Shown here: piece after piece, positions 4,944 through 34,695 of the stretch
Position numbering within the stretch: position 1 is the stretch's first letter
How the letters are laid out: each line of letters opens with the position of its first letter
Virus record (IMG/VR): IMGVR_UViG_3300031873_001030
Direction: 5' to 3' (one strand)
Source of the DNA: a virus
Taxonomy: Duplodnaviria > Heunggongvirae > Uroviricota > Caudoviricetes
Length of the DNA: 64,000 nt
The notes under the pieces: generated by a model
Told to the model about the DNA's origin: nothing
The model's database searches: none
The model's input: only the letters and a program-made list of their open reading frames with translations
Position numbers and translations under genes: made by a program

Positions 4944-5016
4944 TGACAACGAACCTCAGAGATAGAACTTACTGATTCTTAGAATCAGTTGGTTCTTACT
5001 GCGAGGTTCGTTGTCA
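4944..5016 (+). repeat. 73-nt stem-loop element family, copy A (14-bp terminal stem TGACAACGAACCTC / GAGGTTCGTTGTCA)
   Basis: Terminal inverted repeat with a compensatory substitution relative to copies B, C and D; begins 49 nt after the ParB-like stop. Confidence 0.6.
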
Positions 5017-5431
5017 TAGTTCCTTCCCTCTTCATACTTTCTTTAATATTAGGGAATTTATAAAAACTGTAGGTTTTTATTATGAGATAAGGTTCGGTTG
5101 GGTCAGTTGGGGTGGGTTCCGTTCCGATATGGTATGGTAAGATTATATTTATTGGACGTGGTAGGATAGGGTAGGATGCGATATGGTATTGTTACTTGTT
5201 CCGATATGGTTCGGTGATTTGGGGTTAGGTTAGGTCTGTTCCGATAGGGCAAGGTATGGTATTTTATTTATTCGATACGGTTCGGTTTGGTGGGTTTGGG
5301 TTAGGCAAGATAAGATAGGGTTAGACAAGGTATCTTACTTTTGTATCCGATTGGGTAAGGTCTGGTAGTATTCGGTCCGTTGTGGTTAGGCACGATATGG
5401 TGTGGTAAGGTTTGACATTTATAGTCAGTCA

Positions 5432-5491
5432 TTAACATATGATAAAGAGTTGGACCCAGTGCACGGGTGGCATTCCATTAACATATGTTAA
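5432..5491. repeat. variant palindrome (TTAACATATGATAA, 5432-5445) plus canonical core (5478-5491) with a 32-nt GC-rich spacer
   Basis: Read in sequence; sits at the edge of a satellite block. Confidence 0.85.
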
Positions 5492-5513
5492 TGAGAAAAG
5501 ATAAGAAATAATG
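5472..5513 (+). repeat. 42-bp direct repeat ATTCCATTAACATATGTTAATGAGAAAAGATAAGAAATAATG, copy 1 (copy 2 at 5817-5858)
   Basis: Two identical 42-mers flank the ORF 5526-5798; each is followed by a start codon. Confidence 0.85.
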
Positions 5514-5525
5514 TAAAATGATAAT

Positions 5526-5798
5526 ATGAAGAAGATAAAGGAAGAATTTTGCTTTCGCAGGAATGATACTAGAACTTCATATGATATGCAGAAAGGCTAT
5601 CTGATATATGGCAAGATTGATGACATTTATAATATCATCACTTACAATCTATTTGAGATGTGGAATACTACAAAGTGTTTTAAAAGGTTTAGGAAATTGT
5701 TCGTCACTACTTCAAATCACGAATGGATACATTATCTTGTTCCAGATATAAAAGATGGAAGTCTGATGAAGAAGATTGAAAATTGGTTTAACTGGTAA
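5526..5798 (+). CDS. hypothetical protein (90 aa) bracketed by 42-bp direct repeats
   Basis: ORF track; flanking direct repeats. Confidence 0.35.
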   Translation: MKKIKEEFCFRRNDTRTSYDMQKGYLIYGKIDDIYNIITYNLFEMWNTTKCFKRFRKLFVTTSNHEWIHYLVPDIKDGSLMKKIENWFNW

Positions 5799-5816
5799 AA
5801 TGTATCGTTAACCAAA

Positions 5817-5858
5817 ATTCCATTAACATATGTTAATGAGAAAAGATAAGAAATAATG
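5817..5858 (+). repeat. 42-bp direct repeat copy 2 (contains palindrome core 5823-5836)
   Basis: Identical to 5472-5513. Confidence 0.85.
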
Positions 5859-6150
5859 AAAATCAAAAAGAGGTAAAAAAAATGAGATACTATTGCCGAG
5901 AACATAAGGAAAGTTTTGAGACTACTGTCTGCTTTCTTCAACATGTTCTTAAGGAACACCATAGCATATTTGACATCACAAGTGAATAGATATTTATGTG
6001 ATGAGGTGGGGTCAAGTCAGGTCGGTTCTGGTTGCGATACTGACCTTATCACACCAAACCTCACCTTACCAGGGTTCGATAAGTTGTGATTTGGTAGGAT
6101 AGGGTAAAGTTATTTATATTTGAAACACGTAATTATATGTCAAGGAAGTC

Positions 6151-6223
6151 TGACAACAAACCTCAGAGTTGGAACTTTCTGGTTCTAAAAAATCACTTAG
6201 TTCTTTCTGCGAGGTTTGTTGTC
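6151..6223 (+). repeat. 73-nt stem-loop element, copy B (stem TGACAACAAACCTC / GAGGTTTGTTGTC)
   Basis: Embedded in the satellite; stem co-varies with copies A and D. Confidence 0.6.
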
Positions 6224-6948
6224 TTTGTATCGACTTTATCATTCGGTCAGGTAAGGCGGGTTCAGGTGGGGTATAGTTTCGGTTCGGTATGGTAGTTTGA
6301 CATTTATACGATACGGTAAGGTGAGGTTTGGAAGATAGTCTTTATGATTCGGTAAGGTGGGGTCAGTTGCGATTGTGTGAGGTTTGATTTGGTTTGGTCT
6401 GATTTGGTAGTTTGAGGCAAGGTAAAGTTAATTCCTTTTATATGATAAGGTATGGTCTAATTCGGTCTGGTTTGGTTGGATGGGCTACGTTCCGATAAGG
6501 TTCGGTATGGTAATATGACACTTATACGATTAGGTTCGGTCAGGTAAGGTTGGGTCAAATGCGATTAGGTAAGATGAGGTTCGGTCAGATACGGCAAGAT
6601 ATGGTATAATATTTATTCGGTTAGGTGAGGTCAGTTTAGGTCTGGTCTGATGTAGTTTGGCATGGTAGTATAACACTTATCGGTTTGGTTCGGTATGATG
6701 CGATATGGTCAGATTCGGTTTGATATGGTAGTATGACACTTATTGGTCAGGTTTAGTAGAATATGGTAAGGTTCGGTTCGATACGGTGGGATATGGTCAG
6801 TTAGGATTTGGAAAAGGAGAGAATAGTTTCAAGAAAGAATCAGCCCTTGGGTGAGTCCCTTGAAATGAAAAATGCCGCACCAGAGATGGTGATATTAGGT
6901 AAACTAATATAAATCAAGGTTCGAACCGTCCGTTAGGCAACGGTTCTC

Positions 6949-7020
6949 TGACAACAAACCTCAGAGTTAGAACTTACTGGTTCTTGAAATCAGTTGGTTC
7001 TTTCTGCGAGGTTTGTTGTC
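6949..7020 (+). repeat. 73-nt stem-loop element, copy C
   Basis: Embedded in the satellite; loop AGAGTTAGAACTTACTGGTTCTTGAAATCAGTTGGTTCTTTCTGC. Confidence 0.6.
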
Positions 7021-7963
7021 TTCCTCCAAAAAATTACTTATTCGATAGGGTAAGGATAGGTATGCTATGTCAGGGTCAGGTTTGGTTAGGTTTGATATGG
7101 TATGGTAAGGTAATTTAATACTTTTGCTTTGGTGCAATATGGTAATATTCGGTAGGGTATAATTCGGTGGGTTCCGTTAAGGTATGGTAAGGATTATATT
7201 TATGAAATACGTATATAGGAATAGAGATGATGAAAGGGAACTTAAATTTGAAGTTCCAGATAGTATGTCAATAGCTGAAGCATTTGAATTTGCAGAAAGG
7301 AAATGCGCCAGCATGGAGTGATTATAATTTTTGGTCTGGTAGGGTGCGATTAGGTACGATTGGGTTTGGTCAGATAGGATATGATATGGACTATTGTAAT
7401 TTTCGGTTAGGTGCGGTTAGGTCTGGTTTGGTGCGTTCGAGGTGTGGTCAGATAGGATATGGAACTTTCATTCGTACTTTTCGGTAGGGCATTATTCGGT
7501 CCGATATGGTCTGGTCAATTCCGCTCTGGTTCGGTTAGATAGTGTATGGTGATATATGTTAAGTCGTGGTTTGGTTCGGTCTGGTAGAATGAGGTTTATC
7601 TTTTTTGATAGGCTATCGTTCGGTCTGGTGAGGTATGGTTCGGTAGGGTTCGGCAAGGTTTAATCCTTTTAGGAAAGGGTCTTTGATTCATTCCCTTTCT
7701 ATAAAAGATTTATCCCACGTCTTCGGGATTTATCCCTTCTTTCAGAAGGGATTTATATATCACCGAATCTCGTTTTAAACGAGATTCACAAAGAACTTGT
7801 GGTCGGGTCTGATACGGCAAGGTGTGATACGGTAAGATAAGATTGGGTTATGGTCTGGCAAGGAACTTTTTACTTATATGGTTTGGCACGGTCCATTCCG
7901 TTGCGTTTAGGTGTGGTAAGGCTTGGTATGGTTACGATTTATTTGGCGTAACATATGTAATAC

Positions 7964-8632
7964 GTGTATTTAAGGTTTCTTATGTATAGTTATGCTATGG
8001 CAAAAGATGAGAATAGGGAAATAAACGTCAGTGGAAAGACAATTGCCTTAATCCTTATGGTAATCATTACAATATTTTCAGTAGGCAGTCTGATAGTAGC
8101 CATAAATGATAAAGGTCAAGCTTCCTCAGATTCAACTAGCTGGCAGAACAAATATACAACTTGCAGTTCTGGATTAAGCTCTTGCAACTCTCAACTAAGC
8201 TCTTCTCAATCAAGCTCCTCTTCATGCGCTTCACAACTCAATACTTGCAATAGCAACCTTGATTATTATCAGAACACAGGAGGAACTTGCAGTTCAGATT
8301 TGAGCAATTGCAATGCCAATTATAATACCTGCAATGCCAATCTTAACAATTATAAGACACTTTATTCTAATTGCGGTGGCAGTCTGACTAACTATCAGAC
8401 ACTTTATTCTAACTGCCAGTCAAGCTATTCTACTTGTAATTCTAATTTCAATACTCTGACTTCCACTTACAATTCTCTGAAGTCAAATTCTGATGTCATG
8501 GCACAGAATTATGCCAGTATGAAATGCTGTCCAAGCTGGCCATCCACCAAATACAGCTATTACTATACAAGCAATGGAAATGTCTATTGCACTGATACAG
8601 CAACAGCAAGCACAAAACTTACAGGATGCTAA
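7964..8632 (+). CDS. secreted/anchored Ser/Cys/Asn-rich repeat protein (222 aa) with N-terminal TM anchor
   Basis: TM helix IALILMVIITIFSVGSLIVAI; periodic TCNSNL/NCNANY/TCNANL/NCGGSL/NCQSSY/TCNSNF units with a Cys every 10-11 residues. Confidence 0.45.
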   Translation: MYLRFLMYSYAMAKDENREINVSGKTIALILMVIITIFSVGSLIVAINDKGQASSDSTSWQNKYTTCSSGLSSCNSQLSSSQSSSSSCASQLNTCNSNLDYYQNTGGTCSSDLSNCNANYNTCNANLNNYKTLYSNCGGSLTNYQTLYSNCQSSYSTCNSNFNTLTSTYNSLKSNSDVMAQNYASMKCCPSWPSTKYSYYYTSNGNVYCTDTATASTKLTGC

Positions 8633-8793
8633 ATCATGAGAAAATATACATCCGACAAATGGTTGAAACCTGGTGAAAAATATATCAGCACTGCAGAGAA
8701 AGAACCTGTTCCTAAAAAGAAATATGGTCATGTAGAAATTCCAGATATAGAAGACGATTGATAACTAATATTATAATAGTTTTTAAGTGGTAA

Positions 8794-9276
8794 GTGATGA
8801 GTTACGACGAGACAAGTGATTTAGCATATCTGATATTATTCGTCGGTTGTATAATTGGATTGCTCATACTTATCGTTGGCTTAGTCGGATTTTTCAATCT
8901 TGTCCAAGGATTATATTTTTGGGATTGGTTCATACTATTTATCTTGACATTCCTAGCTTCAGAAGTTTTCTTCCTTCTTGTATTCAAGAAAAAACCGACA
9001 GGAAATGTATTCTGGAAGACATTTGGAAATAAGATTTTATCTTGGATGTCAGGTTCGTTGATAATCGCAGAATTTACTTCTTTCTATTATTACATTATTC
9101 TGAACATAATCAGAGATTGGCTTACCGTATTGGAAGTATTGACTACTATAGGAAAAATAATTGGAATAGGTGTGATGATTGCATCACTTATTGCTTTTTA
9201 CGTATGGTTCAACACTTTGAGATATAAAAATATCAAAGAACCTAAAGGGAAACTTAAAAAAGTATACAAGAGGTGA
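8794..9276 (+). CDS. integral membrane protein (160 aa, about 4 TM helices)
   Basis: Four long hydrophobic segments. Confidence 0.45.
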   Translation: MMSYDETSDLAYLILFVGCIIGLLILIVGLVGFFNLVQGLYFWDWFILFILTFLASEVFFLLVFKKKPTGNVFWKTFGNKILSWMSGSLIIAEFTSFYYYIILNIIRDWLTVLEVLTTIGKIIGIGVMIASLIAFYVWFNTLRYKNIKEPKGKLKKVYKR

Positions 9277-9280
9277 TTAG

Positions 9281-9608
9281 TTTCTGATAATTACTCAGAC
9301 ATTCACATTCGGACATAGTGAAAATCTTCTGGCAAGGATATTCTCCTCAAGCACAACACTTGCAAGATGCACATTTGTTTTCAATGAAAGACGCATAATA
9401 GAATATTATATCCGTGAAGAATGGGGTGGAAAAATTGCTGATACAAAAACTATTAATGGTTTCATAGACAGATTATGTAGAGACACCACGCATGAATTTG
9501 TTCATGCTCTTGGAAATTGCCATGTGGAATGGGTACCAAAGATGATGGATAGATGGATGAAAAAACGAATCATATATGCACATTCTGTGGGACAAAGGAA
9601 GGACCTAT
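9281..9608 (+). CDS. possible gene with a non-ATG start (or pseudogene) carrying a HExxHxxGxxH metzincin-type motif
   Basis: About 109 sense codons open from the TAG at 9278-9280 to the TGA at 9606-9608; contains HEFVHALGNCH; no in-frame ATG until codon 88, so absent from the ATG-based track. Confidence 0.25.
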
Positions 9609-9702
9609 GATACAGTTTGACTATGACGACTGGGAATGTGAAAAATGCCATAGGATGGGAAGACACATATCACGTAAATAAATATGAATATCAAAATCAG
9701 AA

Positions 9703-10209
9703 TTGAAATATATGGAAGGATATAGTGTAAAGATTGGAAAGTGTTGTAATTGTAAAAAGGATATAACTAAAATGGGATTGAAAATAATAAAAGCAGAAGT
9801 TTTCACGAAAGAAGTATTTGACAAGATAATGAAAGGTGATTATATCGAAAATGCTAAGAAAGAGTATGAAAGCTTTTCCAATCAAAATCAGAGAAAAGGC
9901 CAATGGTTGTGGAATAAAATATGGGATAAAGTAGTTGATAAAGCAAAGAGACCAGAGAGTGAAAAAGATATTCTTGAAAATGAACAATTAGTTTCACATC
10001 ATCTATGGACTATGAAAGATTCTGAATTTGATGAGATGATGTCAAAGAGGGTAGATTGTTCTAAAATCTTGAAACTGATTGACGAATTTAGTAAAAAGTT
10101 TGATGTTAAGACTTTAGAATTATGTGGAGAAACTATAGAATATATTCCTATAACAATTGCAGACTGGAACAACTTTAAGGAAAAACTCAAGCAAGAGATT
10201 TTGAAATGA
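9703..10209 (+). CDS. hypothetical protein (168 aa)
   Basis: ORF track; no recognised motif. Confidence 0.4.
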   Translation: MKYMEGYSVKIGKCCNCKKDITKMGLKIIKAEVFTKEVFDKIMKGDYIENAKKEYESFSNQNQRKGQWLWNKIWDKVVDKAKRPESEKDILENEQLVSHHLWTMKDSEFDEMMSKRVDCSKILKLIDEFSKKFDVKTLELCGETIEYIPITIADWNNFKEKLKQEILK

Positions 10210-10332
10210 TGATAACAACAGCAATATTCATATTACTGAAACTTTTTGTAGAGAATAATAGTGTATCTTGGTGGTGGATGTTACTTTTCATACTCTTTGA
10301 TTTGATGATGGTTCTTACTATCAGAGTAGATT

Positions 10333-10524
10333 TTGGAAGATGAAATTATGAGTTATAAATGTGAAAATTGTAAAGGAACAGTTCCAAACTGTATGCCACA
10401 AATAAAGATAATTGTAGAAAAGAGAGATAAGACATATCCGAATGGAAGCATTGGTTGGGAAACAGTCAAAGAGAAAGTATTGTGCAGTTCATGCAATAAG
10501 GATAAAGAGGTCAAAAAATCATAG
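10333..10524 (+). CDS. small zinc-ribbon protein (63 aa)
   Basis: CENCKG...CSSCNK motif pairs. Confidence 0.3.
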   Translation: MEDEIMSYKCENCKGTVPNCMPQIKIIVEKRDKTYPNGSIGWETVKEKVLCSSCNKDKEVKKS

Positions 10525-10649
10525 ATTTCAATCAGATAATTGACAAGTATCTGGATAGGGAAAGGAGAGAAAGAAAGATAGGGGAATATTATGTTAGCGA
10601 GATTCCATATTGTTTAAGATTAACTTGGTTTAGATTCAAACAGCCTAAA

Positions 10650-11186
10650 GTGACATCCAAAAAAACACTCAGGCTATTCGAGAGGGGCAATGTGATTCAT
10701 CAATTCATATCAAAAGTCCTATTGAGTTCGGAAGCAGTAAGGGAAGTAAAAAGTGAACAGTCACTAAGGATACCAAGGATATCTGACAACCCTAAGGAAA
10801 ATTTTCTAATCACAGGCAGATTTGATAACTTTATTGAATTAGTAGAAGGGGAAAATGTGCTGATTGAAGTGAAGACGACAAGAAATCTGGATTATCAGAA
10901 ATCAGCTTCATTGCATCATATCATGCAACTGACACCATATCTTTTATACAAGCAAGGTCTGAAAGGTGCCATATTGTATATAGACATGAACTTCCAGACA
11001 AAAGTATTTGAAGTGATTTATGACCCTAAATTGATGCTGGAAATAATGAAAAGGGCAGAAAATTTGCATATGTATTTAGTGGAAGACAAAATGCCGCTAC
11101 CAGAAGCCAAAGACATACCAGAAAAAAATTGGGAATGCAAATACATATGCAATTATAAAGAGGAATGTGATAAATGTGTTACCTAA
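10650..11186 (+). CDS. PD-(D/E)xK nuclease, Cas4/RecB-like, with C-terminal Cys cluster
   Basis: GRFDNF...IEVK (D...ExK) followed by QxxxY-like LYKQ; C-terminal CKYICNYKEECDKC cluster as in Fe-S Cas4-type nucleases. Confidence 0.4.
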   Translation: MTSKKTLRLFERGNVIHQFISKVLLSSEAVREVKSEQSLRIPRISDNPKENFLITGRFDNFIELVEGENVLIEVKTTRNLDYQKSASLHHIMQLTPYLLYKQGLKGAILYIDMNFQTKVFEVIYDPKLMLEIMKRAENLHMYLVEDKMPLPEAKDIPEKNWECKYICNYKEECDKCVT

Positions 11187-13353: not shown

Positions 13354-13583
13354 TTATCATCATCAGAATCTTTTGTAAACAGAATTCCCAGATATTTCAA
13401 TCTATCTTCCTCTATTCTTTCAAATCTCAATCTTGTATTTCCAAGCCTGTATACTTCATGGTTGGTGCTATAGTTGTAAAACATGAACCTCAATTGGAAT
13501 TGTTCCAAATCTTTTTTCCCATATAATCTTCCTATCTCAAGTTCATTGTCATCCATCATTTCCTTTCTCCTATACATGAGCAA
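13350..13583 (-). CDS. hypothetical protein (77 aa)
   Basis: ORF track; 4-nt overlap with the downstream gene. Confidence 0.3.
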   Translation of the reverse strand: MLMYRRKEMMDDNELEIGRLYGKKDLEQFQLRFMFYNYSTNHEVYRLGNTRLRFERIEEDRLKYLGILFTKDSDDDK

Positions 13584-15055: not shown

Positions 15056-15059
15056 ATCA

Positions 15060-19184: not shown

Positions 19185-19520
19185 TAGTAAAAATAAAAAA
19201 ATTATATAATATATATATTAGAGTATATGAATGAAATCGTTGTTGGAGTTAAGGCGTAGAATGTCTCCGTTGGGGTAATTCATCTAGTCTGTATAGAGTA
19301 GAGGAAGAATATTCCAAATCGCAGAACATAGAGAGAGAGAGAGAGAAAATCTTGACTTCTTGTTTTGCCAAATGGAATATTTTGCTAGTAGTCTATAAAG
19401 ACTAGATGAACAAGGCTAACGGAGACAATTTACGCCTTCTTTCCAATAACGAAAAACGCAGTTTTTTTGCCAAAAATGATATTGAAAAAAGCCACTTTTT
19501 CGTTGTTTTTTGAAACAGCA
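19185..19520. other. candidate replication origin: AT-rich tract followed by a 190-bp imperfect palindrome (arms 19251-19330 and 19355-19438) around a (GA)8 centre
   Basis: Arms include AAGGCGTAGAATGTCTCCGTTGG vs the reverse complement of CTAACGGAGACAATTTACGCCTT, CATCTAGTCT vs AGACTAGATG, and AATATTCCAAAT vs ATTCCATTTGGCAAAAC (ORB-like TTCCA...TGG..AAAC); no ORFs; immediately downstream of the MCM-like gene. Confidence 0.4.
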
Positions 19521-24479: not shown

Positions 24480-24601
24480 TGTCAAATTAGAAATGCAATA
24501 CGATTGTTAACAAGAAAGTTAACAAAGTCTCACCTGCCAGAATTGCACCAGCATCTACGAGGCTACAGCTCGTTGTTCTACTGTTGAACTAAGGCGAGTT
24601 G

Positions 24602-24674
24602 TGGGGATGCTGAGATTTGAACTCAGATTATTCGCTTCCAGAGCGAAGGTTCTAACAAGTTATACTACATCCCC
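24602..24674 (-). tRNA. tRNA-Pro (anticodon UGG); D-arm non-canonical by eye
   Basis: Minus-strand read GGGGATG...TTCGC-TCTGGAA-GCGAA...CTGAG-TTCAAAT-CTCAG-CATCCCC-A; acceptor, anticodon and T arms perfect. Confidence 0.6.
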
Positions 24675-24677
24675 AAG

Positions 24678-24751
24678 GGAGAATAGAGGGATTTGAACCC
24701 TCTCTAACAAGTTCACAGCTTGACGTGCTCGCCTACTACACCATATTCTCC
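24678..24751 (-). tRNA. tRNA-His (anticodon GUG) with genome-encoded G-1
   Basis: G-1:C73 pair; acceptor GAGAATA/TATTCTC; D-stem GTGT/GCAC; anticodon loop CTGTGAA; T-arm GAGGG-TTCAAAT-CCCTC; 3 nt from tRNA-Pro. Confidence 0.7.
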
Positions 24752-25212
24752 ATTTTATTATGTTCTTCTCTATGGCAATTTGCACATAGAAGTTTGCATT
24801 TCTGCAATTCTTTTCGTATCACCTCGAGACTATTATGCCATATTCTGGATATTTCATATTTCTTTTCTCCGTTCATATGATGAAATTCAAGTGCTGCGAA
24901 ACATTTGTTATATCCACATTTTTGACATTTACCTCCAAATTCCATTTTCATAATTTTTGTTTTTTCTTGGTTTTTACGCTTTTGTGCTATATACCACAAA
25001 TGTCTCTGAGGGAGAGATGATTTTTGTTTATGTTGTTTTATATATTTTCTCATATATTCTCTATGATATTTTTTCCTTTTTTCTCTGTTTTCAGGGTTTG
25101 ACAACCAAATTTTCCATCGTTCTTTTTCTTGCTCACGGTGTGATTTTCTATATAATCTATTTATTTCACACAATCGTTCTTTGTTTTTTTCATAATATTT
25201 TTTACTGGTCAT
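24736..25212 (-). CDS. HNH endonuclease (158 aa); final 5 codons overlap the 5' end of tRNA-His
   Basis: HNH core CQKCGY...LEFHHMNG...N...CANCHREEHN; basic K/R-rich N-terminus; stop TAG at 24736-24738 lies inside tRNA-His. Confidence 0.6.
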   Translation of the reverse strand: MTSKKYYEKNKERLCEINRLYRKSHREQEKERWKIWLSNPENREKRKKYHREYMRKYIKQHKQKSSLPQRHLWYIAQKRKNQEKTKIMKMEFGGKCQKCGYNKCFAALEFHHMNGEKKYEISRIWHNSLEVIRKELQKCKLLCANCHREEHNKMENMV

Positions 25213-25255
25213 ATAATGTAATTGTTTAATACCATTTATATTTGTTGTTGAACTA

Positions 25256-25330
25256 CGCTCTGGGCAAGACTCGAACTTGCAATTTCTCCGTTAACAGCGG
25301 AGCGCTTGTACCTGTTTAAGCTGCCAGAGC
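25256..25330 (-). tRNA. tRNA-Asn (anticodon GUU)
   Basis: GCTCTGG-CA-GCTT-AAACAGGTAC-AAGC-G-CTCCG-CTGTTAA-CGGAG-AAAT-GCAAG-TTCGAGT-CTTGC-CCAGAGC-G; all stems canonical. Confidence 0.75.
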
Positions 25331-25333
25331 AAG

Positions 25334-25437
25334 TACTCCCCGAATGATTCGAACATTCGTCTCTTGGTTTCTCCAAGTTTCAGATTCTTGTTGAAATTAT
25401 CAAAGCCAAGCATCTTTGTCCACTGGACGAGGGGAGT
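25334..25437 (-). tRNA. tRNA-Gln (anticodon UUG) with A1:U72 pair and a roughly 31-nt intron at position 37/38 (intron about 25368-25398)
   Basis: Acceptor ACTCCCC/GGGGAGT; T-arm GAATG-TTCGAAT-CATTC; anticodon stem CTTGG/CCAAG with loop CTTTGA|intron|A; D-arm fit only approximate. Confidence 0.45.
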
Positions 25438-25469
25438 ATATTGATTGTAGTTCTTTTTAAAAACTATGG

Positions 25470-25545
25470 ACACAAGCGGGAATCGAACTCGCATCTCTTT
25501 CTTGCAAGGGAAGTATCCTACCATTAAACGATTGGCCCGTCATTG
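25470..25545 (-). other. tRNA-like sequence with T-loop TTCGATT that I could not fold into a canonical cloverleaf
   Basis: GCGAG-TTCGATT-CCCGC followed by TTGTGTCCA; no matching 5' acceptor strand found nearby. Confidence 0.2.
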
Positions 25546-26358: not shown

Positions 26359-26385
26359 AGTATTATCAGTAATTGCAAAAATATA

Positions 26386-26859: not shown

Positions 26860-26863
26860 TGGT

Positions 26864-28279: not shown

Positions 28280-28299
28280 TAAAAAAGGAAGTGAAATAA

Positions 28300-28599: not shown

Positions 28600-28844
28600 A
28601 CTTTGAAGACTCATCAAGAGAAAGGATAGAATCCATGAAGAAATTAAAGGACGAATTTTTAGAGGAAGTATTCAAGAAATTTGGAATGTCCAAAACTGGA
28701 AGTAATGATATCTATAAGGTGAAGGACATGTCAATAGGTATCGTTAGAGATGAACTATATCAAGTGTTCAGAAAATTGGCAAAGCAGGAATTGCGAAATA
28801 CCTTTACTAAATTATGCAAGGAAATAGATGGTGATGAAGATTAA
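28596..28844 (+). CDS. hypothetical protein (82 aa; track ORF 28515 probably starts at the internal ATG coupled to the upstream stop)
   Basis: ATGA start/stop overlap at 28596-28599. Confidence 0.3.
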   Translation: MNFEDSSRERIESMKKLKDEFLEEVFKKFGMSKTGSNDIYKVKDMSIGIVRDELYQVFRKLAKQELRNTFTKLCKEIDGDED

Positions 28845-29322
28845 GCAATACAAGATAGTCTATCCAAAAGAGTTTGAGGTCAACGAAACTTGGGGAAAAT
28901 CATTTGTTTTTCCATTTGAACCATTGGATTTGTCAAATAAGCCAGATAGCTTGGGAAGAATTGAGTGGCATATAGAACTTGTAATGGATAAGAAAAAGAG
29001 CAAGGTCAGCAAATCATTTTCAAAATATTACATAAAGGAATTGTGGGTATTTGCCACACAGACAAAAGATAAGAGGTACATAGGTAAAATATTCAAGATA
29101 CCGTGCCATACAGAAACTCTTACTGCTTCTTCTTTCCATCCTGAGGACTATTTGAACAACTTATGGAAATTCACATTCTGCGATGAGCACAAGAACCCAC
29201 TCTTTTCTGCATATCCAAAAGATGAGCACAAATATTTTGTGATTGATGCATCAAGTTCCATTTCAATAGAACCAAAATTCATGTCAAAATTACCTGTTAA
29301 AGATGTACTGCATAAGAGTTAG
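28828..29322 (+). CDS. hypothetical protein (164 aa)
   Basis: ORF track. Confidence 0.4.
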   Translation: MVMKIKQYKIVYPKEFEVNETWGKSFVFPFEPLDLSNKPDSLGRIEWHIELVMDKKKSKVSKSFSKYYIKELWVFATQTKDKRYIGKIFKIPCHTETLTASSFHPEDYLNNLWKFTFCDEHKNPLFSAYPKDEHKYFVIDASSSISIEPKFMSKLPVKDVLHKS

Positions 29323-29483
29323 AATAAAGTAATGATGTAAAATGTATGTTGCGATATATAATTTCTGAAATCTAAAACAATATTAATCATCTTTCATAAA
29401 TTTTATTCTGCTCCTAAAAGTTTGTCTTAATAAGCTAGCTTTACGGAGTATTTGATAAGTAAGTAAGTAACTAGGTAATAATA

Positions 29484-29903
29484 ATGGATAAGCCTAAATC
29501 AAATGAAGAGGAAAAGTTTGAGAAGGGAGCAGAGGCTAGTTCATCTACCCTTGCTCCTTCTTCAAAATTAAAAGAAGAGAGAAAAATTCCTGAGGCGACT
29601 TTTGTGGTTCCTACTTCTACTATTGGGACTTTTGTGAAGAAGGATGATAAAGACGTTTCATTTCCAGAATGGGAGGGACGGTATAGGAAACGGGCTAGGA
29701 GGCTTGGGATTATTTTCACGGTCTGCTGTATTTTGGCTGTCATTTGGTTGTTATACATTTACATTGCTGGAAACAAGGATGTCCTTAGTACGATAACATA
29801 TACTCTTCTGATGTGGATACTTGTGATAGTGTTCCTGAAGTTTGCTGTGAATAGGAGAGTAAAGCAGAAAGAGAATTCCTATAGAAAGAAAGCGGAGGGC
29901 TAG
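29484..29903 (+). CDS. membrane protein (139 aa, 2 TM)
   Basis: Hydrophobic helices in the C-terminal half. Confidence 0.4.
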   Translation: MDKPKSNEEEKFEKGAEASSSTLAPSSKLKEERKIPEATFVVPTSTIGTFVKKDDKDVSFPEWEGRYRKRARRLGIIFTVCCILAVIWLLYIYIAGNKDVLSTITYTLLMWILVIVFLKFAVNRRVKQKENSYRKKAEG

Positions 29904-29905
29904 TT

Positions 29906-30238
29906 GTGGGAAATTACAGATTTCTTATAACTCTTGAGCTCCTTGGGAGATTAGTCTTGGGTGTGAGCTGGCTTATTTTCGTCAGCGCTTTTGTGCGGTT
30001 TGGTGAATATTTTTCGGCTTTTGCGTTTGTAGTTTTTGGATTGTCATCTATCGCAATGGTTTACTGGATGTTCGTTCCATTCTTCATTCCTGTTGCTTTA
30101 TTGACCCCACTGATGGGGTTGACAAGAAAGAAAGATGAGAAACTGGATAGCAGAAGGAAACCAGAGGAATTTTCTGGAATGATACTTTTCAACTTGGCCT
30201 ATGAAAGATTAAAACAGAGAGTAGAGCGAGGTTCATAA
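29906..30238 (+). CDS. membrane protein (110 aa, 3 TM)
   Basis: Hydrophobic helices. Confidence 0.4.
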   Translation: MGNYRFLITLELLGRLVLGVSWLIFVSAFVRFGEYFSAFAFVVFGLSSIAMVYWMFVPFFIPVALLTPLMGLTRKKDEKLDSRRKPEEFSGMILFNLAYERLKQRVERGS

Positions 30239-30241
30239 TCA

Positions 30242-31066
30242 ATGGCTAAACTTACTGCTACTGTAAATGATGTTGTCATGTTCAAGTCTCTTTTTGGTCT
30301 GTTGTGCAGGAATTCTGATATGCTAAAATTTAAAGTCGATAAGGAAGGTATAAGTTCTGTTACTATGCCTGCGGATATGGCGACTTTTCTTAGTGTTTTG
30401 ATAAAGCCAAATTTCTTTGAGGAATGGAATTTTGAAGGTTCGTTCATGTATTGCTATTTTGACCCGCAGCAATTTTCTCGGATGATGAAGAATCTTACCT
30501 CGAAGAAGATTGAGATGGTGCTTGATGAGAATTATATAAATTTCAGTCTTGAGAACGAGGGAAGAAAGAAACATATCTCATTGGTACAGATTACTGGAGA
30601 ATTGTCAGAGCTTCCTGGGAATTTGGGAACTGATTTTGATTTTTCATGGATTATTGAGATAGAGACTTTGAAAAGCATTGTGGATGATATTGTCAATGTC
30701 GATGACAATGCGGATTTGTCTTCCATCTATTTCACATGGGAAAAAGACAGTCTGAAAGTTGAAGCAAGGGAGAGTAAGGTCATGAAGTTTGAGACTATTA
30801 TTGGCCCACCTTTTGTGAAATGTGGTAGCGGGCATTCTTCTTTTAGGACCAATTATTTTTCAAAGATAGTCTGGGCTGGTCTTGGTAAGATTAGATTTTC
30901 AATCTTGAATACTGACGGTCCAGCTTTTATGGAGACTTGTGATGATAGCAAGTTCTCATTGAAATTTATTGTGGCGCCTTTTGTGGCAAGTAATCCTGAT
31001 ATGGATATCACGTCCGAGAATGACGGTAAAAGTTCACAAGATAGTGAGGTGGTAAGTGATGGGTAA
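30242..31066 (+). CDS. PCNA-like sliding-clamp candidate (274 aa)
   Basis: N-terminal pattern VNDVVMFKSLFGLLCRNSDMLKFKVDKEGISSVTMPADMATFLSVL...FEGSF...NLTSKKIEMVLDEN parallels PCNA domain-1 topology; weak and by eye only. Confidence 0.3.
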   Translation: MAKLTATVNDVVMFKSLFGLLCRNSDMLKFKVDKEGISSVTMPADMATFLSVLIKPNFFEEWNFEGSFMYCYFDPQQFSRMMKNLTSKKIEMVLDENYINFSLENEGRKKHISLVQITGELSELPGNLGTDFDFSWIIEIETLKSIVDDIVNVDDNADLSSIYFTWEKDSLKVEARESKVMKFETIIGPPFVKCGSGHSSFRTNYFSKIVWAGLGKIRFSILNTDGPAFMETCDDSKFSLKFIVAPFVASNPDMDITSENDGKSSQDSEVVSDG

Positions 31067-31520
31067 ATGTACAGCGTGTGGAAAAAACATAGGAATGTTT
31101 GGTAGCAGCAAGTCTTGCGATGCTGAAGATTGTAAAGTTGAAGGTCTGTGCAAGGAATGTTCGTCTGCCAAATTGTCAGACTGCGAAAAATGCGGATATA
31201 CATTCTGCATTGCTCACATAAAAAATCATGAATGCGAAGAGGAAAGTGATAAGGAAGAGAGTGAGGATTCTGAAGATGGAGAAGAGGAGGAAGAGCCTGT
31301 TGAATTGTCTGAAGATGATGTCCATATCTCAAAGGATAAGAAATTTAAGATGCTTCTTTTGGAAGATTACTATAATGAAGATATTGTAAACTTCCTTGAA
31401 GAGACGGAAAAGGAAGGGTATGTGCTTATCGGCACCGATATGGGCAATAGCATGTACTTATTCAAGAACTTTTCTTTAGAAAAGAAAAGTTCACAAAAGA
31501 AAGAAGGAGAAAGTGCATGA
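31056..31520 (+). CDS. Cys-rich zinc-binding protein with acidic linker (154 aa)
   Basis: CTACGK...CKEC...CEKCGY...C...H pattern; E/D-rich tract. Confidence 0.4.
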   Translation: MMGKCTACGKNIGMFGSSKSCDAEDCKVEGLCKECSSAKLSDCEKCGYTFCIAHIKNHECEEESDKEESEDSEDGEEEEEPVELSEDDVHISKDKKFKMLLLEDYYNEDIVNFLEETEKEGYVLIGTDMGNSMYLFKNFSLEKKSSQKKEGESA

Positions 31521-31556
31521 AGAATCAAGAATCAGAAAATTCTTTGTATACTTTCT

Positions 31557-32483
31557 TTGAAGAAAGTATTTGGAGGTTATAAAGAAATGATAATGACAAC
31601 AGGAAGTTGGATATTGGCAGGATTAGGTGCCTTCATATTCATAATGTTTCTTTCTGGAATAAGGATAGTAAGGCCTTTGGAAAGGGGTTTGGTTGAAAGG
31701 TTTGGTAAGTATCATAGGTTTGCCATGCCAGGTTTCAATTGGATAATCCCAGTATTTGACAGCATGTACAGAATCAACATCACCGAGACTATGGTGAATG
31801 CTGAACCTCAGCAGATTATTACTATGGATAAACTGAATGCCACAGTTGATGCGCAGGTTTATTTCAAGGTAAAAGATGATGAGACTTCTGTGAAGGCTTC
31901 TCAATATAACGTCTACAACTACAGGTACCAGATTGTAAATCTTGCGAGGACTACTCTGAGAAACATCATAGGTACGATGTCCCTTACTGATGCAAATAGC
32001 AAGAGGGATGTGATAAACAAGGATTTGATGGATACTCTCAGTGTCGAGACAAAGAATTGGGGTATACAAGTTGTGAGGACTGAATTGAAGGAGATAGACC
32101 CGCCAGAAGATGTACAAGCTACAATGAACAGGGTAGTGAAAGCGGAGAATGAAAAGATGGCTGCCATAGACTTTGCAACAGCTGCAGAGACTCAGGCAGA
32201 TGGTCTTAAGAGAGCGAAGATAAAGGAAGCGGAAGGTCTGAGGCAATTTGAGATATTGCGTGCAGAAGGTAATAAGCAGGCGACTATACTTGAAGCTGAC
32301 GGAAGAGCTCAGGCTATCAAGCTTGTGAATGAGGCTGCAGAAAAGTATTTCATTGGAAATGCCCAGAAATTGAAGACTCTCGAAGTCACTCAGAGTTCAT
32401 TGGAAAGCAATACAAAAATAATAGTTCCGAACGACCAGAAAATCATAAATGTGATAGGAAACTTAATCGGCGAAAAATTATAG
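31557..32483 (+). CDS. SPFH/band-7 (stomatin/prohibitin-like) membrane protein
   Basis: N-terminal TM then VRPLERGLVERFGKYHRFAMPGFNWIIP... SPFH pattern with a coiled-coil-like C-terminus. Confidence 0.6.
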   Translation: MKKVFGGYKEMIMTTGSWILAGLGAFIFIMFLSGIRIVRPLERGLVERFGKYHRFAMPGFNWIIPVFDSMYRINITETMVNAEPQQIITMDKLNATVDAQVYFKVKDDETSVKASQYNVYNYRYQIVNLARTTLRNIIGTMSLTDANSKRDVINKDLMDTLSVETKNWGIQVVRTELKEIDPPEDVQATMNRVVKAENEKMAAIDFATAAETQADGLKRAKIKEAEGLRQFEILRAEGNKQATILEADGRAQAIKLVNEAAEKYFIGNAQKLKTLEVTQSSLESNTKIIVPNDQKIINVIGNLIGEKL

Positions 32484-32564
32484 AGAAACTTTTTCAAAAA
32501 AGTTTCATCAAAAAATCTGTGGTAGGGTTTGGTATATTGATTTTGTTAGTGAGGAGTATATAAA

Positions 32565-32807
32565 ATGACGAAAACAATAGTTGAGGAAAGTGTGATGCCG
32601 CATAAAAATGATTTCAGTTTTGACGAAGGAAAATCTTTTCTTGTAGAGGAATTTAAGATTAATGATAATCTTAGAAGAAGATATGTGAAGCTTATTGACC
32701 AGCATGGAAAATTCGAATTGTCTTTGTCACAGTTCAAATGGATTGTTGAAAAAGTCAATTGCATAGAATCTGAAGTAAATGTATATGAAAAACAATTGAG
32801 ATTGTGA
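32565..32807 (+). CDS. hypothetical protein (80 aa)
   Basis: ORF track. Confidence 0.3.
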   Translation: MTKTIVEESVMPHKNDFSFDEGKSFLVEEFKINDNLRRRYVKLIDQHGKFELSLSQFKWIVEKVNCIESEVNVYEKQLRL

Positions 32808-33193
32808 ATATGAAAAATATAAAGATAACGACAAAAATTTGTGACAAGCATTTTGCAATTTTGAGATATGAAAGTGATGATATGATTAGTGCGAAGAAGG
32901 TTTTCAATAAGCTGAATTGTAAGTTTAATTTCAAAGAGACTTGGTTCGTATCTGTTGATGGGATGATTTTTTCCATATCTTTCTGCCTTTATACTTGGTC
33001 GAAATACAAGTCGATGATTTATGCAAAAGGTATTTCAAAGAATTTCCGTGAAGGATGTTTGAAGGATAGGTGCGGTTGTCTTGTGTTGAAACCTGGCTGC
33101 AAGTTTAAAGTATTGTACAAATTCAATCAGGAGCGTTCGAATCAGGAACTTAAGAATAGCATTCAAGATATATTAACTAGGAAAGAATTATAA
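32804..33193 (+). CDS. hypothetical protein (129 aa)
   Basis: ORF track; 4-nt overlap coupling. Confidence 0.35.
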   Translation: MNMKNIKITTKICDKHFAILRYESDDMISAKKVFNKLNCKFNFKETWFVSVDGMIFSISFCLYTWSKYKSMIYAKGISKNFREGCLKDRCGCLVLKPGCKFKVLYKFNQERSNQELKNSIQDILTRKEL

Positions 33194-33195
33194 TT

Positions 33196-33501
33196 ATGGA
33201 GAACTTTCTTCAAAGAAAGTTCACAAAGAAATTGGAGGTAACTGGTATGAGTAAAGAAGCTGCAAGTAAGGAAGATGGTAGAGGAAGAAACGCAGTTTCT
33301 TCCCTAATGCATAAGCTGAAGATGGAAAAAAGATATAAAGGTAAGAAGATTGTTTCGATGAAGGAACGGTTCCTTAAGACTGCGCATCAGAGAGGGAAGA
33401 TGAAAAAAGGAATGACTAAATCCCAGATGAAGAAAGAAATCAAGCAAAGATTAAAAGATAAAAAACCAATATATCAATCAAGGCTTACCGATTATGTTTA
33501 A
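33196..33501 (+). CDS. basic K/R-rich protein (101 aa)
   Basis: ORF track. Confidence 0.35.
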   Translation: MENFLQRKFTKKLEVTGMSKEAASKEDGRGRNAVSSLMHKLKMEKRYKGKKIVSMKERFLKTAHQRGKMKKGMTKSQMKKEIKQRLKDKKPIYQSRLTDYV

Positions 33502-33829
33502 GAAGAAAAAAGTTTCGGCGAGACAGGAAGTAGAAGATATACGGAATAAAGTACATCAATCTGTACATTCTAAAGATAGGATGTCTTTAAAGGAAGAGCT
33601 TGATGAACTTCATGCACAGATACATGAGTCTGGAAAAGTTCGGATGCCTACTAGGGGGGAGATATATGGACATCCAACAAAGCCGATTGGAATCTGCTTG
33701 AAATGCAAAAAGATGTTTCCGACTGAGCAGCTTCAACGTTATTATATAAATCCAGAAGAGTGTTATTGGTTGTGTCCAAAGTGCGGTTTCAAGAAAAGAA
33801 TGAGAGAAAAGTTTTCATCGAGATTATAA
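33494..33829 (+). CDS. zinc-ribbon protein (111 aa)
   Basis: CLKCKK...CPKCGF. Confidence 0.35.
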   Translation: MFKKKKVSARQEVEDIRNKVHQSVHSKDRMSLKEELDELHAQIHESGKVRMPTRGEIYGHPTKPIGICLKCKKMFPTEQLQRYYINPEECYWLCPKCGFKKRMREKFSSRL

Positions 33830-33878
33830 TTAAGTGATAAGAGGCAATAGAAAGTGAAAGAAGAAATCATTAATTTCT

Positions 33879-34622
33879 TTGTATACTTTCTTTGAAGAAA
33901 GTATTATGATAGAAGATGAAATTATAAGCGGGAGAATTTCTATTGGTCGGGTTGGTATTTATCTTAATGCTAAGACTAAAGGTGGTTACAATATAGGATT
34001 TAATTTTCTTAATAGTCCAGAGCTGAGGACTGCGGGCGTGTGCAATATCACGAAGGACCAGATGTTTATAATGTTTGCTGATTTTGACAATATAGGTTAT
34101 GAAAAACTTAAAGACCAGTTGGATTTCATAAATAGGAATCATGATGTGAGCAATTTTCTTGTTCTTACGACTGGAAAGAATCGATATCATGTGATAAGTT
34201 TTGAAAAATTCTGGAAACAGGAATTAGTTGACATATTGAAGAATACTTTCTGCGATTATACGTATAAAAGTTTTGTTCCGTTGAAAGTTGACAAGGGCTG
34301 GATACTTAGGGTGACTGAAAAGAGGGATTTGGATAATAATGTTGTGAAGGACAGGCCTGAATATGTAGAATCGTTTTCTTATTCTGAAGTCCCTAAGAGG
34401 AGATTGTCGCGTGCTCACGTAGAATTTTTTTCGAGAATGTATCCTGAATTCAGGAAATTTGCAGAGGAGAAGCTTGATAAAAATTATTGGGATGAGTTTA
34501 CTGTGATTCAGCTGCTGAAATATGGGACAAGCCATGAGAATCTTATTGCAAAATTTGACTTGAAGGATTTGATAGATTCCAAGAAGCTTGAAATAGTGTG
34601 GAAGGACAATATATTTGATTAG
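33879..34622 (+). CDS. primase-polymerase (AEP/PrimPol-like) candidate
   Basis: FIMFADFDN (motif I, DxD), LTTGKNRYHVISF (motif II, sGxxxH), later KVDKGW (motif III-like); 247 aa. Confidence 0.4.
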   Translation: MYTFFEESIMIEDEIISGRISIGRVGIYLNAKTKGGYNIGFNFLNSPELRTAGVCNITKDQMFIMFADFDNIGYEKLKDQLDFINRNHDVSNFLVLTTGKNRYHVISFEKFWKQELVDILKNTFCDYTYKSFVPLKVDKGWILRVTEKRDLDNNVVKDRPEYVESFSYSEVPKRRLSRAHVEFFSRMYPEFRKFAEEKLDKNYWDEFTVIQLLKYGTSHENLIAKFDLKDLIDSKKLEIVWKDNIFD

Positions 34623-34695
34623 TGACAATGAACCTCAGAGTAGGAACCAACTGGAAAGTGGAATCAGCAAGTCATAACTGCGAGGTTCATTGTCA
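34623..34695 (+). repeat. 73-nt stem-loop element, copy D (stem TGACAATGAACCTC / GAGGTTCATTGTCA)
   Basis: Starts 1 nt after the PrimPol-like stop; stem carries a compensatory AT/AT pair relative to other copies. Confidence 0.6.

What the first reader, a model, noticed from the sequence alone, without database searches (positions are those of the whole stretch)
4944..34695. Family of 73-nt stem-loop elements (4 copies) with compensatory base changes in a 14-bp terminal stem
Copies at 4944-5016, 6151-6223, 6949-7020 and 34623-34695 share a 14-bp terminal inverted repeat and a roughly 45-nt interior. The interior has conserved islands (AGAG..GAAC, CTG, AATCA, CTGC). The stem is TGACAACAAACCTC/GAGGTTTGTTGTC in copies B and C, but copy A has CG/CG and copy D has AT/AT at the paired positions, so every substitution is matched on the opposite arm. 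That points to selection on the hairpin itself, acting on an RNA or single-stranded DNA structure, rather than neutral decay of terminal inverted repeats. All four copies are in the same orientation. Two lie inside the satellite, one is 49 nt after the ParB-like gene, and one starts 1 nt after the stop of the PrimPol-like gene. Possible roles are a small structured ncRNA, a REP-like hairpin recognised by an HUH/RAYT-type enzyme (none seen in the window), a replication-primer or PrimPol recognition hairpin, or an attachment site.
Basis: seen in the sequence. Interest (0 to 1): 0.7.

Follow-up and report, generated by a model that had tools for sequence, protein, structure and literature searches.

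The report
Small mobile hairpin repeat, four copies
Four copies of a 73-base hairpin-forming repeat are recent insertions into an uncultivated archaeal plasmid- or virus-like genome, so this is most likely an ordinary miniature mobile element and not a conserved RNA or replication signal.

Summary
The four copies exist at the stated coordinates, all on the + strand. Each folds into one long imperfect hairpin (z = -4 to -10). The family is far beyond chance.

The compensatory-change argument is thin:
- Only 2 of 29 pairs covary, and the controls do not support covariation.
- Both variable pairs are the single CpG of each arm (CG to CA/TG), in a genome with CpG observed/expected 0.49.
- Copies B and C have a T·T terminal mismatch. 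Copy D has six broken interior pairs.

The 18-nt termini are conserved far more than the interior (34/36 vs 20/37 between A and D, p = 7e-5).

Related genomes (59-75% protein identity) keep the same flanking genes and sequence, but lack the element at the A and D sites. The inserts are therefore clean and lineage-specific.

I found no copy in IMG/VR, JGI metagenomes, GTDB genomes, GenBank phages or PLSDB, and no Rfam match. About 80 kb of the roughly 92-kb replicon encodes no recognisable transposase or integrase.

Best reading: a transposase-free miniature mobile repeat (MITE-, REPIN- or SMR-like) mobilised in trans. The PrimPol-signal, attachment-site and conserved-ncRNA readings are not supported. 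This is a new member of a known kind, of modest interest.

The parts
4944..5016 (+). Copy A (73 nt). It has the best hairpin, with 28 Watson-Crick pairs plus 1 G·T, and CG/CG at stem positions 7-8. It lies 48 nt after the ParB-like gene and about 65 nt before the first GGT-rich satellite block.
   Evidence: Sequence; fold; model score 98.8 bits. The empty site in relative L031 reads GGGTTGTTGTTCC, against GGGTTTAG[73 nt]TAGTTCC here.
6151..6224 (+). Copy B (74 nt, with one extra base in the loop). It has CA/TG at stem positions 7-8, a T·T terminal mismatch and two interior mismatches. It sits between two satellite blocks.
   Evidence: (88.8 bits).
6949..7021 (+). Copy C (73 nt). It shares the CA/TG change and the T·T terminal mismatch with B, so B and C are sister copies. 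It lies about 20 nt before the last satellite block.
   Evidence: (98.2 bits).
34623..34695 (+). Copy D (73 nt). It has TG/CA at stem positions 7-8. Its termini match A at 34 of 36 positions, but its interior matches at only 20 of 37, with six broken pairs. It starts directly after the TAG stop of ORF 33879-34622 and ends 44 nt before the next gene.
   Evidence: (82 bits). The empty site in relatives L026/L027 reads TAG|GGACATTGTA with a 43-nt spacer, against 117 nt here (73 + 44). The downstream gene is orthologous.

Best explanation
The four copies belong to a family of transposase-free miniature mobile DNA elements. The family is comparable to MITEs and REPINs, and to the 'small mobile repeats' (SMRs) of Haloquadratum.

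**Shown**
- The element has sharp boundaries (5'-TGACAAY...RTTGTCA-3') and unrelated flanks.
- It sits only in intergenic DNA.
- It is absent from the orthologous sites of related genomes.
- The two 18-nt ends are under sequence constraint, while the roughly 37-nt interior drifts.

**Inferred**
- The two ends are the recognition and cleavage sites of an enzyme supplied in trans. That enzyme is most likely encoded by the host chromosome or a co-resident element, because about 80 kb of this roughly 92-kb replicon encodes no recognisable transposase or integrase.
- The family has diversified elsewhere, since D is a different subfamily from A-C. It then entered this replicon at least twice.
- Three observations lean towards a strand-specific route that leaves no duplication, possibly through a single-stranded hairpin: the ends stay complementary to each other, copies B, C and D have no target-site duplication, and all four copies share one orientation. 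They do not prove that route over double-stranded cut-and-paste.
- Any effect on neighbouring genes, such as a 3' RNA hairpin, would be a by-product.
For: **Family and boundaries**
- The family is real and sharply bounded. Flanks show no similarity beyond the 73 nt.

**Empty sites**
- The closest relative genome comes from sample ERZ23499946. Its ParB-like protein is 75% identical (L031) and its 'PrimPol-like' protein 74% identical (L025).
- A second relative is 68% identical (L026/L027) and a third 59% identical (L032).
- All keep the flanking genes and flanking intergenic sequence but lack the element at the A and D sites.
- None of the related loci contains a copy.

**Constraint on the ends**
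- Termini versus interior identity is 34/36 vs 20/37 for A-D (Fisher p = 7e-5) and 31/36 vs 19/38 for B-D (p = 9e-4).
- The unpaired loop bases AG/GC are invariant in all four copies.

**Other points**
- The whole element forms a hairpin on either strand, and the two stem changes keep the arms complementary.
- No consistent target duplication was found.
- No transposase, integrase or HUH family was found among 79 window ORFs or in the precomputed Pfam annotation of the extensions.

**Published analogues**
- REPINs have invariant 16-nt inverted ends, a variable spacer, a hairpin and frequent compensatory changes (PMC3116915, read).
- Haloquadratum SMRs are 80-110 bp, have inverted terminal repeats, make no target duplication, have no related transposon, and are detected as strain-specific insertions (PMC3119063, read).
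Against: - There are only four copies.
- No other member was found in IMG/VR, JGI metagenomes, GTDB representative genomes, GenBank phages or PLSDB.
- No mobilising enzyme was identified.
- No excision or transposition intermediate was seen.
- Target duplication is ambiguous. Copy A is flanked by TAG/TAG and has 2 nt more than the L031 empty site, whereas D is a clean insert.
- Three of the four copies cluster within 2 kb in a repeat-rich non-coding region. They could have spread there by local recombination and not by transposition.
- About 11.4 kb of the replicon, and the host genome, could not be examined.
Confidence: 0.6

Rival explanations
1. The element is a cis-acting RNA hairpin. It is transcribed as the 3' end of the upstream gene and acts as a stabiliser against 3' exonucleases, a processing site or a terminator, or it is a small structured RNA in its own right.
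For: - All four copies are co-oriented with the + strand genes. A and D lie just after stop codons.
- The RNA folds are very stable.
- In A-C the non-Watson-Crick pairs are G·U on the + strand, which would be A·C on the other strand.
- REP hairpins in bacteria are known to have such by-product effects (my own knowledge).
Against: - Related genomes lack the element behind the same genes.
- There is no Rfam family, even at E <= 5, beyond generic hairpin noise.
- There is no covariation support.
- D folds better on the - strand (-32 vs -25.5 kcal/mol) and has A·C mismatches on the + strand.
- No T-run follows the hairpin, so it is not terminator-like as a whole.
- No conserved promoter-like motif lies upstream. 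The flanks are unrelated.
- B and C do not follow recognisable genes.
Confidence: 0.15
2. The element is a double-stranded or cruciform DNA site used by a protein of the replicon itself. It could be a partition site, a priming or replication signal (for example for the 'PrimPol-like' protein), or a site-specific recombination or attachment site.
For: - Three copies lie in the non-coding region directly after the ParB-like gene, and one lies directly after the 'PrimPol-like' gene.
- The 18-nt inverted ends are sequence-conserved, as protein-binding half-sites would be.
- The direct orientation of the copies would allow resolution-type recombination.
Against: - Relatives with the same ParB-like and 'PrimPol-like' genes have no such site.
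- What is conserved after the ParB-like gene in the window, L031 and L032 is the GGT-rich satellite. The TTAACATATGTTAA palindrome pairs are conserved in the window and L031. These are better candidates for centromere or operator sites.
- A roughly 37-nt spacer between the conserved ends does not fit known tyrosine or serine recombinase core sites (my own knowledge).
- No recombinase was found.
Confidence: 0.12
3. The copies are integron-type attC recombination sites, that is, single-stranded hairpins recognised by an integron integrase. They would be remnants of gene cassettes.
For: - The ends read ...CAAC / GTTG..., which contains the conserved AAC/GTT triplets of attC R''/R' boxes (my own knowledge of the RYYYAAC/GTTRRRY consensus).
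- The length of 73 nt is within the attC range.
- The copies lie directly after ORFs and in the ORFs' orientation.
Against: - Only 4 of 7 positions match each box.
- The 14-bp stem has no unpaired central spacer, and no extrahelical bases because the internal loops are symmetric.
- The empty-site comparisons show that the hairpin alone was inserted, not an ORF plus attC cassette.
- No tyrosine recombinase was found.
- The copies are not arranged in an array.
Confidence: 0.03
4. The copies are functionless leftovers of local segmental duplication that are decaying neutrally.
For: Three copies lie within 2 kb in a highly repetitive region.
Against: - Similarity stops exactly at the 73-nt borders.
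- D is 28 kb away, in unique DNA.
- The termini are far more conserved than the interior.
Confidence: 0.05

Closest known systems
REPINs (REP doublets forming hairpins) mobilised by RAYT/TnpA-REP transposases in bacteria (PMC3116915)
   Same: - Both are about 70-90 nt extragenic elements.
- Both have two invariant inverted ends (16 nt in REPINs, 18 nt here) around a less conserved spacer.
- The whole element folds as one hairpin in ssDNA or RNA.
- The arms stay complementary through paired changes.
- Neither has coding capacity.
   Different: - The halves here do not form their own REP-type palindromes.
- No RAYT or Y1 HUH gene was found.
- There are four copies here, not tens to hundreds.
- The replicon here is archaeal and extrachromosomal, not a bacterial chromosome.
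Small mobile repeats (SMR-A/B) of Haloquadratum walsbyi (PMC3119063)
   Same: - Both occur in archaea.
- SMRs are 80-110 bp.
- Both have prominent inverted terminal repeats and no target duplication.
- In both, the terminal repeats are unrelated to any known transposon and the mode of mobilisation is unknown.
- Both are recognised through strain-specific insertions with contiguous empty sites in the other genome.
   Different: - Sequence relatedness was not tested, and I do not expect any.
- SMR-A elements target IS605-type palindromes. The elements here sit in intergenic DNA and in the AT-rich spacers of a satellite.
- The copy number here is far lower.
Classical MITEs derived from DDE insertion sequences (for example Correia, ERIC and archaeal MITEs)
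   Same: - Terminal inverted repeats with 5'-TG...CA-3' tips.
- Small size and intergenic location.
- A long hairpin when transcribed.
   Different: - There is no consistent target-site duplication.
- No parent IS with matching ends was found in any collection searched.
IS200/IS605 ends and PATEs (palindrome-associated transposable elements)
   Same: - Neither makes a target duplication.
- Both depend on hairpins.
- Orientation bias is expected for ssDNA 'peel and paste' transposition.
- Copies A and D both follow 5'-TTAG.
   Different: - PATEs have separate subterminal palindromes at each end and no terminal inverted repeats. Here the two ends pair with each other.
- There is no TnpA or TnpB.
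- B and C follow different bases (GTC and CTC).
Integron attC sites
   Same: - A structure-forming imperfect inverted repeat of similar length.
- AAC/GTT near the ends.
- Placement after ORFs.
   Different: - There are no extrahelical bases or unpaired central spacer.
- There is no integrase.
- The element was inserted alone, not as part of a cassette.

Membership tests
REPIN / REP-RAYT system | Each half is a REP unit that can form its own short palindromic hairpin (the 'clover' form) | tested here: not met
   The two halves of copy A, folded alone as DNA, give -1.1 and -2.1 kcal/mol with z = -0.1 and -0.8.
REPIN / REP-RAYT system | A cognate RAYT (Y1 HUH transposase) gene in the same genome | tested here: inconclusive
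   None was found among 79 window ORFs with Pfam, NCBIfam or PHROGs, although those tables list only the top families. None appears in the precomputed Pfam annotation of L028/L029. About 11.4 kb of the replicon and the host genome were not examined.
REPIN / REP-RAYT system | Invariant inverted ends, a variable spacer, a whole-element hairpin and an extragenic location | tested here: met
   All four copies are intergenic.
MITE (non-autonomous derivative of a DDE insertion sequence) | Terminal inverted repeats | tested here: met
   The inverted repeats are 14 bp and perfect (13 bp in B and C), or 18 nt with two mismatches. The tips read TG...CA.
MITE (non-autonomous derivative of a DDE insertion sequence) | A target-site duplication of fixed length | tested here: not met
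   Only copy A has matching flanks (TAG/TAG). B, C and D have none at common boundaries. The D empty site shows a clean insert.
MITE (non-autonomous derivative of a DDE insertion sequence) | An autonomous parent element with the same ends | tested here: not met
   No sequence with these ends was found in IMG/VR, JGI metagenomes, GTDB genomes, GenBank phages or PLSDB.
Small mobile repeats (SMR) as defined for Haloquadratum | Short, with inverted terminal repeats, no target duplication, terminal repeats unrelated to known transposons, and presence/absence polymorphism between related genomes | tested here: met
   The definition was read. This is a descriptive class, not a homology family. Sequence similarity to the HqIRS elements was not tested.
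Integron attC | R''/R' boxes (RYYYAAC/GTTRRRY), an unpaired central spacer, extrahelical bases, a nearby IntI gene and cassette organisation | tested here: not met
   - Only the CAAC/GTTG part fits the box consensus.
- The stem is 14 bp and uninterrupted, and the internal loops are symmetric.
- There is no integrase.
- The hairpin was inserted without an ORF.
- The IntegronFinder model itself was not available.
Any Rfam RNA family | A score at or above the family's gathering threshold | tested here: not met
   The only hits at gathering score in the window are five tRNAs elsewhere. At E <= 5 the elements hit only miRNA- or leader-type hairpin models, at 14-25 bits against thresholds of 42-184.
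Intrinsic (hairpin plus T-run) terminator | A G+C-rich stem followed directly by a T-run | tested here: not met
   No element as a whole is flagged. Only the apical stem of A is flagged, with its own 3' arm counted as the 'tail'. Sequence after the elements has at most T4.

The most novel reading that the evidence does not exclude
The element could be a hairpin-dependent mobile DNA, or a structured RNA, of a type not yet described in archaea. In that reading a single-stranded fold-back whose ends must pair is recognised by an enzyme outside the known HUH and DDE transposases. A structure-specific nuclease or an AEP-type primase-polymerase carried by such replicons is one conceivable candidate. 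The conserved asymmetric AG/GC internal loop would then be the recognition feature, and the paired CG-to-CA/TG and CG-to-TG/CA changes would reflect real selection for end pairing.
Probability: 0.1. Interest if true: 0.6.

Novelty: new member of a known kind. Interest (0 to 1): 0.3.

Why it matters
If this reading is right, the element shows that small transposase-free repeats invade rarely sampled archaeal extrachromosomal elements. It also provides clean insertion markers that distinguish closely related lineages.

Its practical value is mostly negative. The hairpins should not be annotated as ncRNA genes, origins, att sites or primase signals. The conserved cis-elements of this replicon family are instead the GGT-rich satellite behind the ParB-like gene and the TTAACATATGTTAA palindromes.

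A wider significance would arise only if the mobilising enzyme turned out to be new.

Tried and rejected
**Known RNA classes**
- tRNA or tRNA-like: rejected (ARAGORN and Rfam).
- Known RNA family: rejected.

**More copies in the window**
- The 3-mismatch hits at 13534 and 41057 are chance, as the sequence shows.
- The CM search with filters off gives nothing new.

**Copies elsewhere**
- The exact-core pattern AACCTCAGAG N30-50 CTGCGAGGTT was scanned in IMG/VR, JGI metagenomes and GTDB genomes. It returned only 0, 4 and 5 unrelated chance hits, confirmed by eye and by CM score.
- The single-arm pattern in IMG/VR gave four hits, none with a CM match.
- blastn against GenBank phages and PLSDB gave only partial coding-region noise.

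**Relatives in IMG/VR**
- Searches with the ParB-like protein, the 'PrimPol-like' protein and its family alignment found none.

**Other tests**
- A 58-nt hairpin in relative L032 (6826-6887, arms ATTTACAACACTCCAA) scored E = 0.0017 with the model and shares T-ACAAC/GTTGT-A tips. It is single-copy, sits in local GGAGTG repeats, and was selected by a structure-rewarding model. I treat it as unresolved and not as a family member.
- A target-site duplication search with shifted boundaries found no consistent solution.
- The REP-doublet architecture was rejected.
- The terminator reading was rejected.
- The 'PrimPol-like' identity was checked with Pfam, PHROGs and a PDB profile and gave no hit. The invariant DFD and H motifs in the family alignment look AEP-like, but only by eye.
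- The MCM-like and Hef-like proteins were searched against phages and plasmids to place the replicon. The result was uninformative.


Full report
**What is there**

The four copies are at the coordinates given (4944-5016, 6151-6223/4, 6949-7020/1, 34623-34695), all in + orientation.
- Each arm motif occurs four times, against 0.5 and 0.2 expected. None of 100 shuffles reached that count.
- A covariance model built from the four copies (R1) was run with filters off. It finds exactly these four in the window. It finds none in the 8.8 kb upstream or the 7.4 kb downstream of the window on the same replicon.
- That replicon is ENA contig k141_1406800, 91,950 bp, identical or nearly identical to the window. 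So there are four copies in about 80.6 kb of a roughly 92-kb genome.

**Anatomy**

In fact the whole element is one long imperfect hairpin, built as follows:
- a 14-bp stem;
- a 2x2 internal loop (AG opposite GC);
- 2 bp;
- a 2x2 loop;
- 6 bp;
- a 1x1 loop;
- 7-8 bp;
- a 3-6-nt apical loop.

RNA MFE values are -42.1, -31.5, -37.2 and -25.5 kcal/mol, with z = -10 to -4. Both strands fold, and DNA parameters give the same architecture. The two halves do not fold on their own.

**The compensation claim**

Stem positions 7-8 and their partners are CG/CG (A), CA/TG (B and C) and TG/CA (D), so both changes keep pairing. That is the only covariation in the element, and several points weaken it.
- Two of 29 pairs (three cells) changed on both sides. 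83 of 500 column shuffles reach the observed score. RNAalifold's covariation term is +0.06.
- B and C carry an unmatched change at the outermost pair (T·T).
- B has two broken interior pairs and D has six.
- Both covarying positions are the single CpG of each arm, and the changes are exactly CpG-to-CpA/TpG.
- CpG is strongly depleted in this window (observed/expected 0.49, with TG/CA at 1.2).
- The chance of the observed pattern under neutrality therefore depends on the mutation model. It is 4.5e-4 with equal substitution and 4e-3 with transitions only (simulation). It is about 0.25 if only CpG decays (my calculation).

The pattern is suggestive, but it is not evidence of selection on a hairpin.

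**What is actually constrained**

The two 18-nt ends are nearly invariant, including the unpaired AG/GC loop bases, while the interior drifts.
- A versus D: 34/36 identical in the ends against 20/37 in the interior (Fisher p = 7e-5).
- B versus D: 31/36 against 19/38 (p = 9e-4).

This is sequence constraint on the termini, as in transposon ends. It is not constraint on structure alone.

**Comparison with relatives: the decisive evidence**

Homologues of the two genes that precede copies A and D exist only in a handful of metagenome contigs.

*Site D*
- Relatives with 74%, 68% and 61% identical proteins, and more distant ones, have the next gene directly after the stop codon.
- In L026/L027 the spacer is 43 nt (TAG|GGACATTGTA...). 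In the window it is 117 nt, which is 73 + 44 (TAG[element]GGCTTTTATTGTA...).
- The downstream gene is orthologous.

*Site A*
- L031 comes from the same sample as the 74% relative, and its ParB-like protein is 75% identical.
- It reads ...GAAGCGGGTTGTTGTTCCTTCCCTCTTCATACTTTCTTTA..., where the window has ...GAAGCAGGGTTTAG[element]TAGTTCCTTCCCTCTTCATACTTTCTTTA....
- L032 (59% identical) also goes straight from the gene into the satellite.

*Overall*
- No related locus contains any copy.
- The elements are therefore lineage-specific clean insertions at two or more independent sites.
- They are not conserved partners of the ParB-like or 'PrimPol-like' genes.

**Searches elsewhere**

The invariant core (AACCTCAGAG N30-50 CTGCGAGGTT) has no true match in IMG/VR, JGI metagenomes or GTDB representative genomes. 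The few hits are unrelated. Nothing was found in GenBank phages or PLSDB. Rfam gives nothing at gathering score, and only generic hairpin noise at E <= 5.

**Context**

The replicon is an uncultivated archaeal extrachromosomal element.
- It has about 35% GC, with strong G-over-C skew on the coding strand.
- It encodes a Hef/Xpf nuclease, an archaeal PCNA, Agl16- and Sta1-like proteins, Cas4, an MCM-like P-loop/wHTH protein, many glycosyl- and methyltransferases, and giant surface-type ORFs.
- No capsid, terminase, integrase or transposase family was detected in the window ORFs or in the precomputed annotation of the extensions.
- The 'PrimPol-like' label could not be confirmed, although invariant DFD and H motifs look AEP-like.

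Copies A-C lie in a roughly 3-kb non-coding region after the ParB-like gene. That region consists of GGT-rich degenerate satellite blocks.
- The satellite is conserved behind the same gene in L031 and L032.
- Pairs of the palindrome TTAACATATGTTAA are conserved in L031.
- These two features are the better candidates for centromere or operator function.

**Mechanism**

I commit to a transposase-free miniature mobile element whose two ends are recognised by an enzyme supplied in trans (confidence about 0.6).
- *Shown:* sharp borders, unrelated flanks, empty sites in relatives, and constrained termini.
- *Inferred:* D represents a second subfamily that diverged elsewhere, presumably in the host, before entering this replicon.
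- *Inferred:* the ends need to pair or match each other.
- *Weak pointers:* the absence of a consistent target duplication, the single orientation of all copies (chance 1 in 8), and the arm complementarity lean towards a strand-specific route that leaves no duplication. The TG...CA tips and the TAG/TAG flanks of copy A would equally fit a DDE enzyme.

**Comparison with known systems**

In behaviour the element resembles bacterial REPINs, which have invariant inverted ends, a variable spacer, a hairpin and frequent compensatory changes (PMC3116915). Within archaea it resembles the 'small mobile repeats' of Haloquadratum. Those are 80-110 bp, have inverted terminal repeats, make no target duplication, have no related transposon, and move by an unknown mechanism (PMC3119063).
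- It is not a REPIN by membership. There are no REP half-palindromes and no RAYT was found.
- It is not a classical MITE. There is no consistent target duplication and no parent IS.
- It is not a PATE. Its ends pair with each other and are not separate subterminal palindromes.
- It is not an attC site. It has no extrahelical bases or central spacer, there is no integrase, and it was inserted without a cassette.

**Verdict**

It is most probably a new, very low-copy member of the known class of miniature palindromic mobile elements. Interest is modest at 0.3.

The main open points are the mobilising enzyme, the source population of the family, and whether the conserved asymmetric loop matters. 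All three need the host genome and the raw reads of the source samples.

Noticed in passing
window 700, 988, 1575, 1613, 2314, 2359, 2425, 2491, 5432, 5478, 5823, 12361, 12398, 24416, 24466 (each 14 nt); also L031 6984-7033 and 7575-7674: The perfect 14-bp palindrome TTAACATATGTTAA occurs 15 times, against 0.03 expected. It mostly occurs in pairs 20-70 nt apart in front of small ORFs, and it is conserved in the 75%-identity relative L031. It is a likely operator or other protein-binding site of this replicon family, and a better candidate for a conserved cis-element than the 73-nt hairpins.
   Followed up: partly
window about 5090-5420, 6000-6120, 6235-6800 and 7040 to about 7950; L031 6650-7350; L032 4000-4230: Blocks of a degenerate GGT-rich satellite (GGTTCGGT, GATATGGT and GGTAAGGT units with AT-rich 'ACATTTATA' spacers) fill the roughly 3-kb non-coding region after the ParB-like gene. 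Equivalent blocks follow the same gene in two relatives. This is a candidate centromere or origin region. The stretch at 7200-7950 was inferred from ORF translations and was not read directly.
   Followed up: partly
window 19237-19328 and 19361-19452: A large inverted repeat with 92-nt arms, 76% complementary, 32 nt apart. It was not examined.
   Followed up: no
whole window: CpG is strongly depleted (observed/expected 0.49) and TG/CA is in excess (1.2). This bears on any covariation argument that involves CG dinucleotides in this genome.
   Followed up: partly
L032 6826-6887: A 62-nt hairpin with perfect 16-bp arms (ATTTACAACACTCCAA/TTGGAGTGTTGTAAAT) lies about 80 nt after a 676-aa gene in a related replicon. 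Its tips (T-ACAAC...GTTGT-A) resemble those of the window element (model E = 0.0017). It is single-copy in the data held. It may be a distant analogue or a coincidence.
   Followed up: partly
It forms a small family found only in metagenomes, with invariant DFD, H and D motifs reminiscent of archaeo-eukaryotic primases.
   Followed up: partly
window 24527-25538, - strand: A cluster of tRNA genes (Tyr, Pro, His and Asn by ARAGORN, plus a fifth seen only by Rfam at 25468-25538, 37.5 bits) lies on the strand opposite to most genes.
   Followed up: no
window 42939-43088; 51805-52903; 62784-63700: There is a near-perfect 48-nt tandem repeat (3.1 copies, 97% matches). There are also long 75/150-nt and 102/162-nt coding repeats inside the giant ORFs: the 3752-aa DUF285 protein and the next large ORF.
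   Followed up: no
window 5474-5512 and 5819-5857: A roughly 40-nt direct repeat (CCATTAACATATGTTAATGAGAAAAGATAAGAAATAATG) precedes each of two small ORFs (5526-5798 and 5882-5989) between satellite blocks. It looks like a duplicated promoter/operator-leader module.
   Followed up: no
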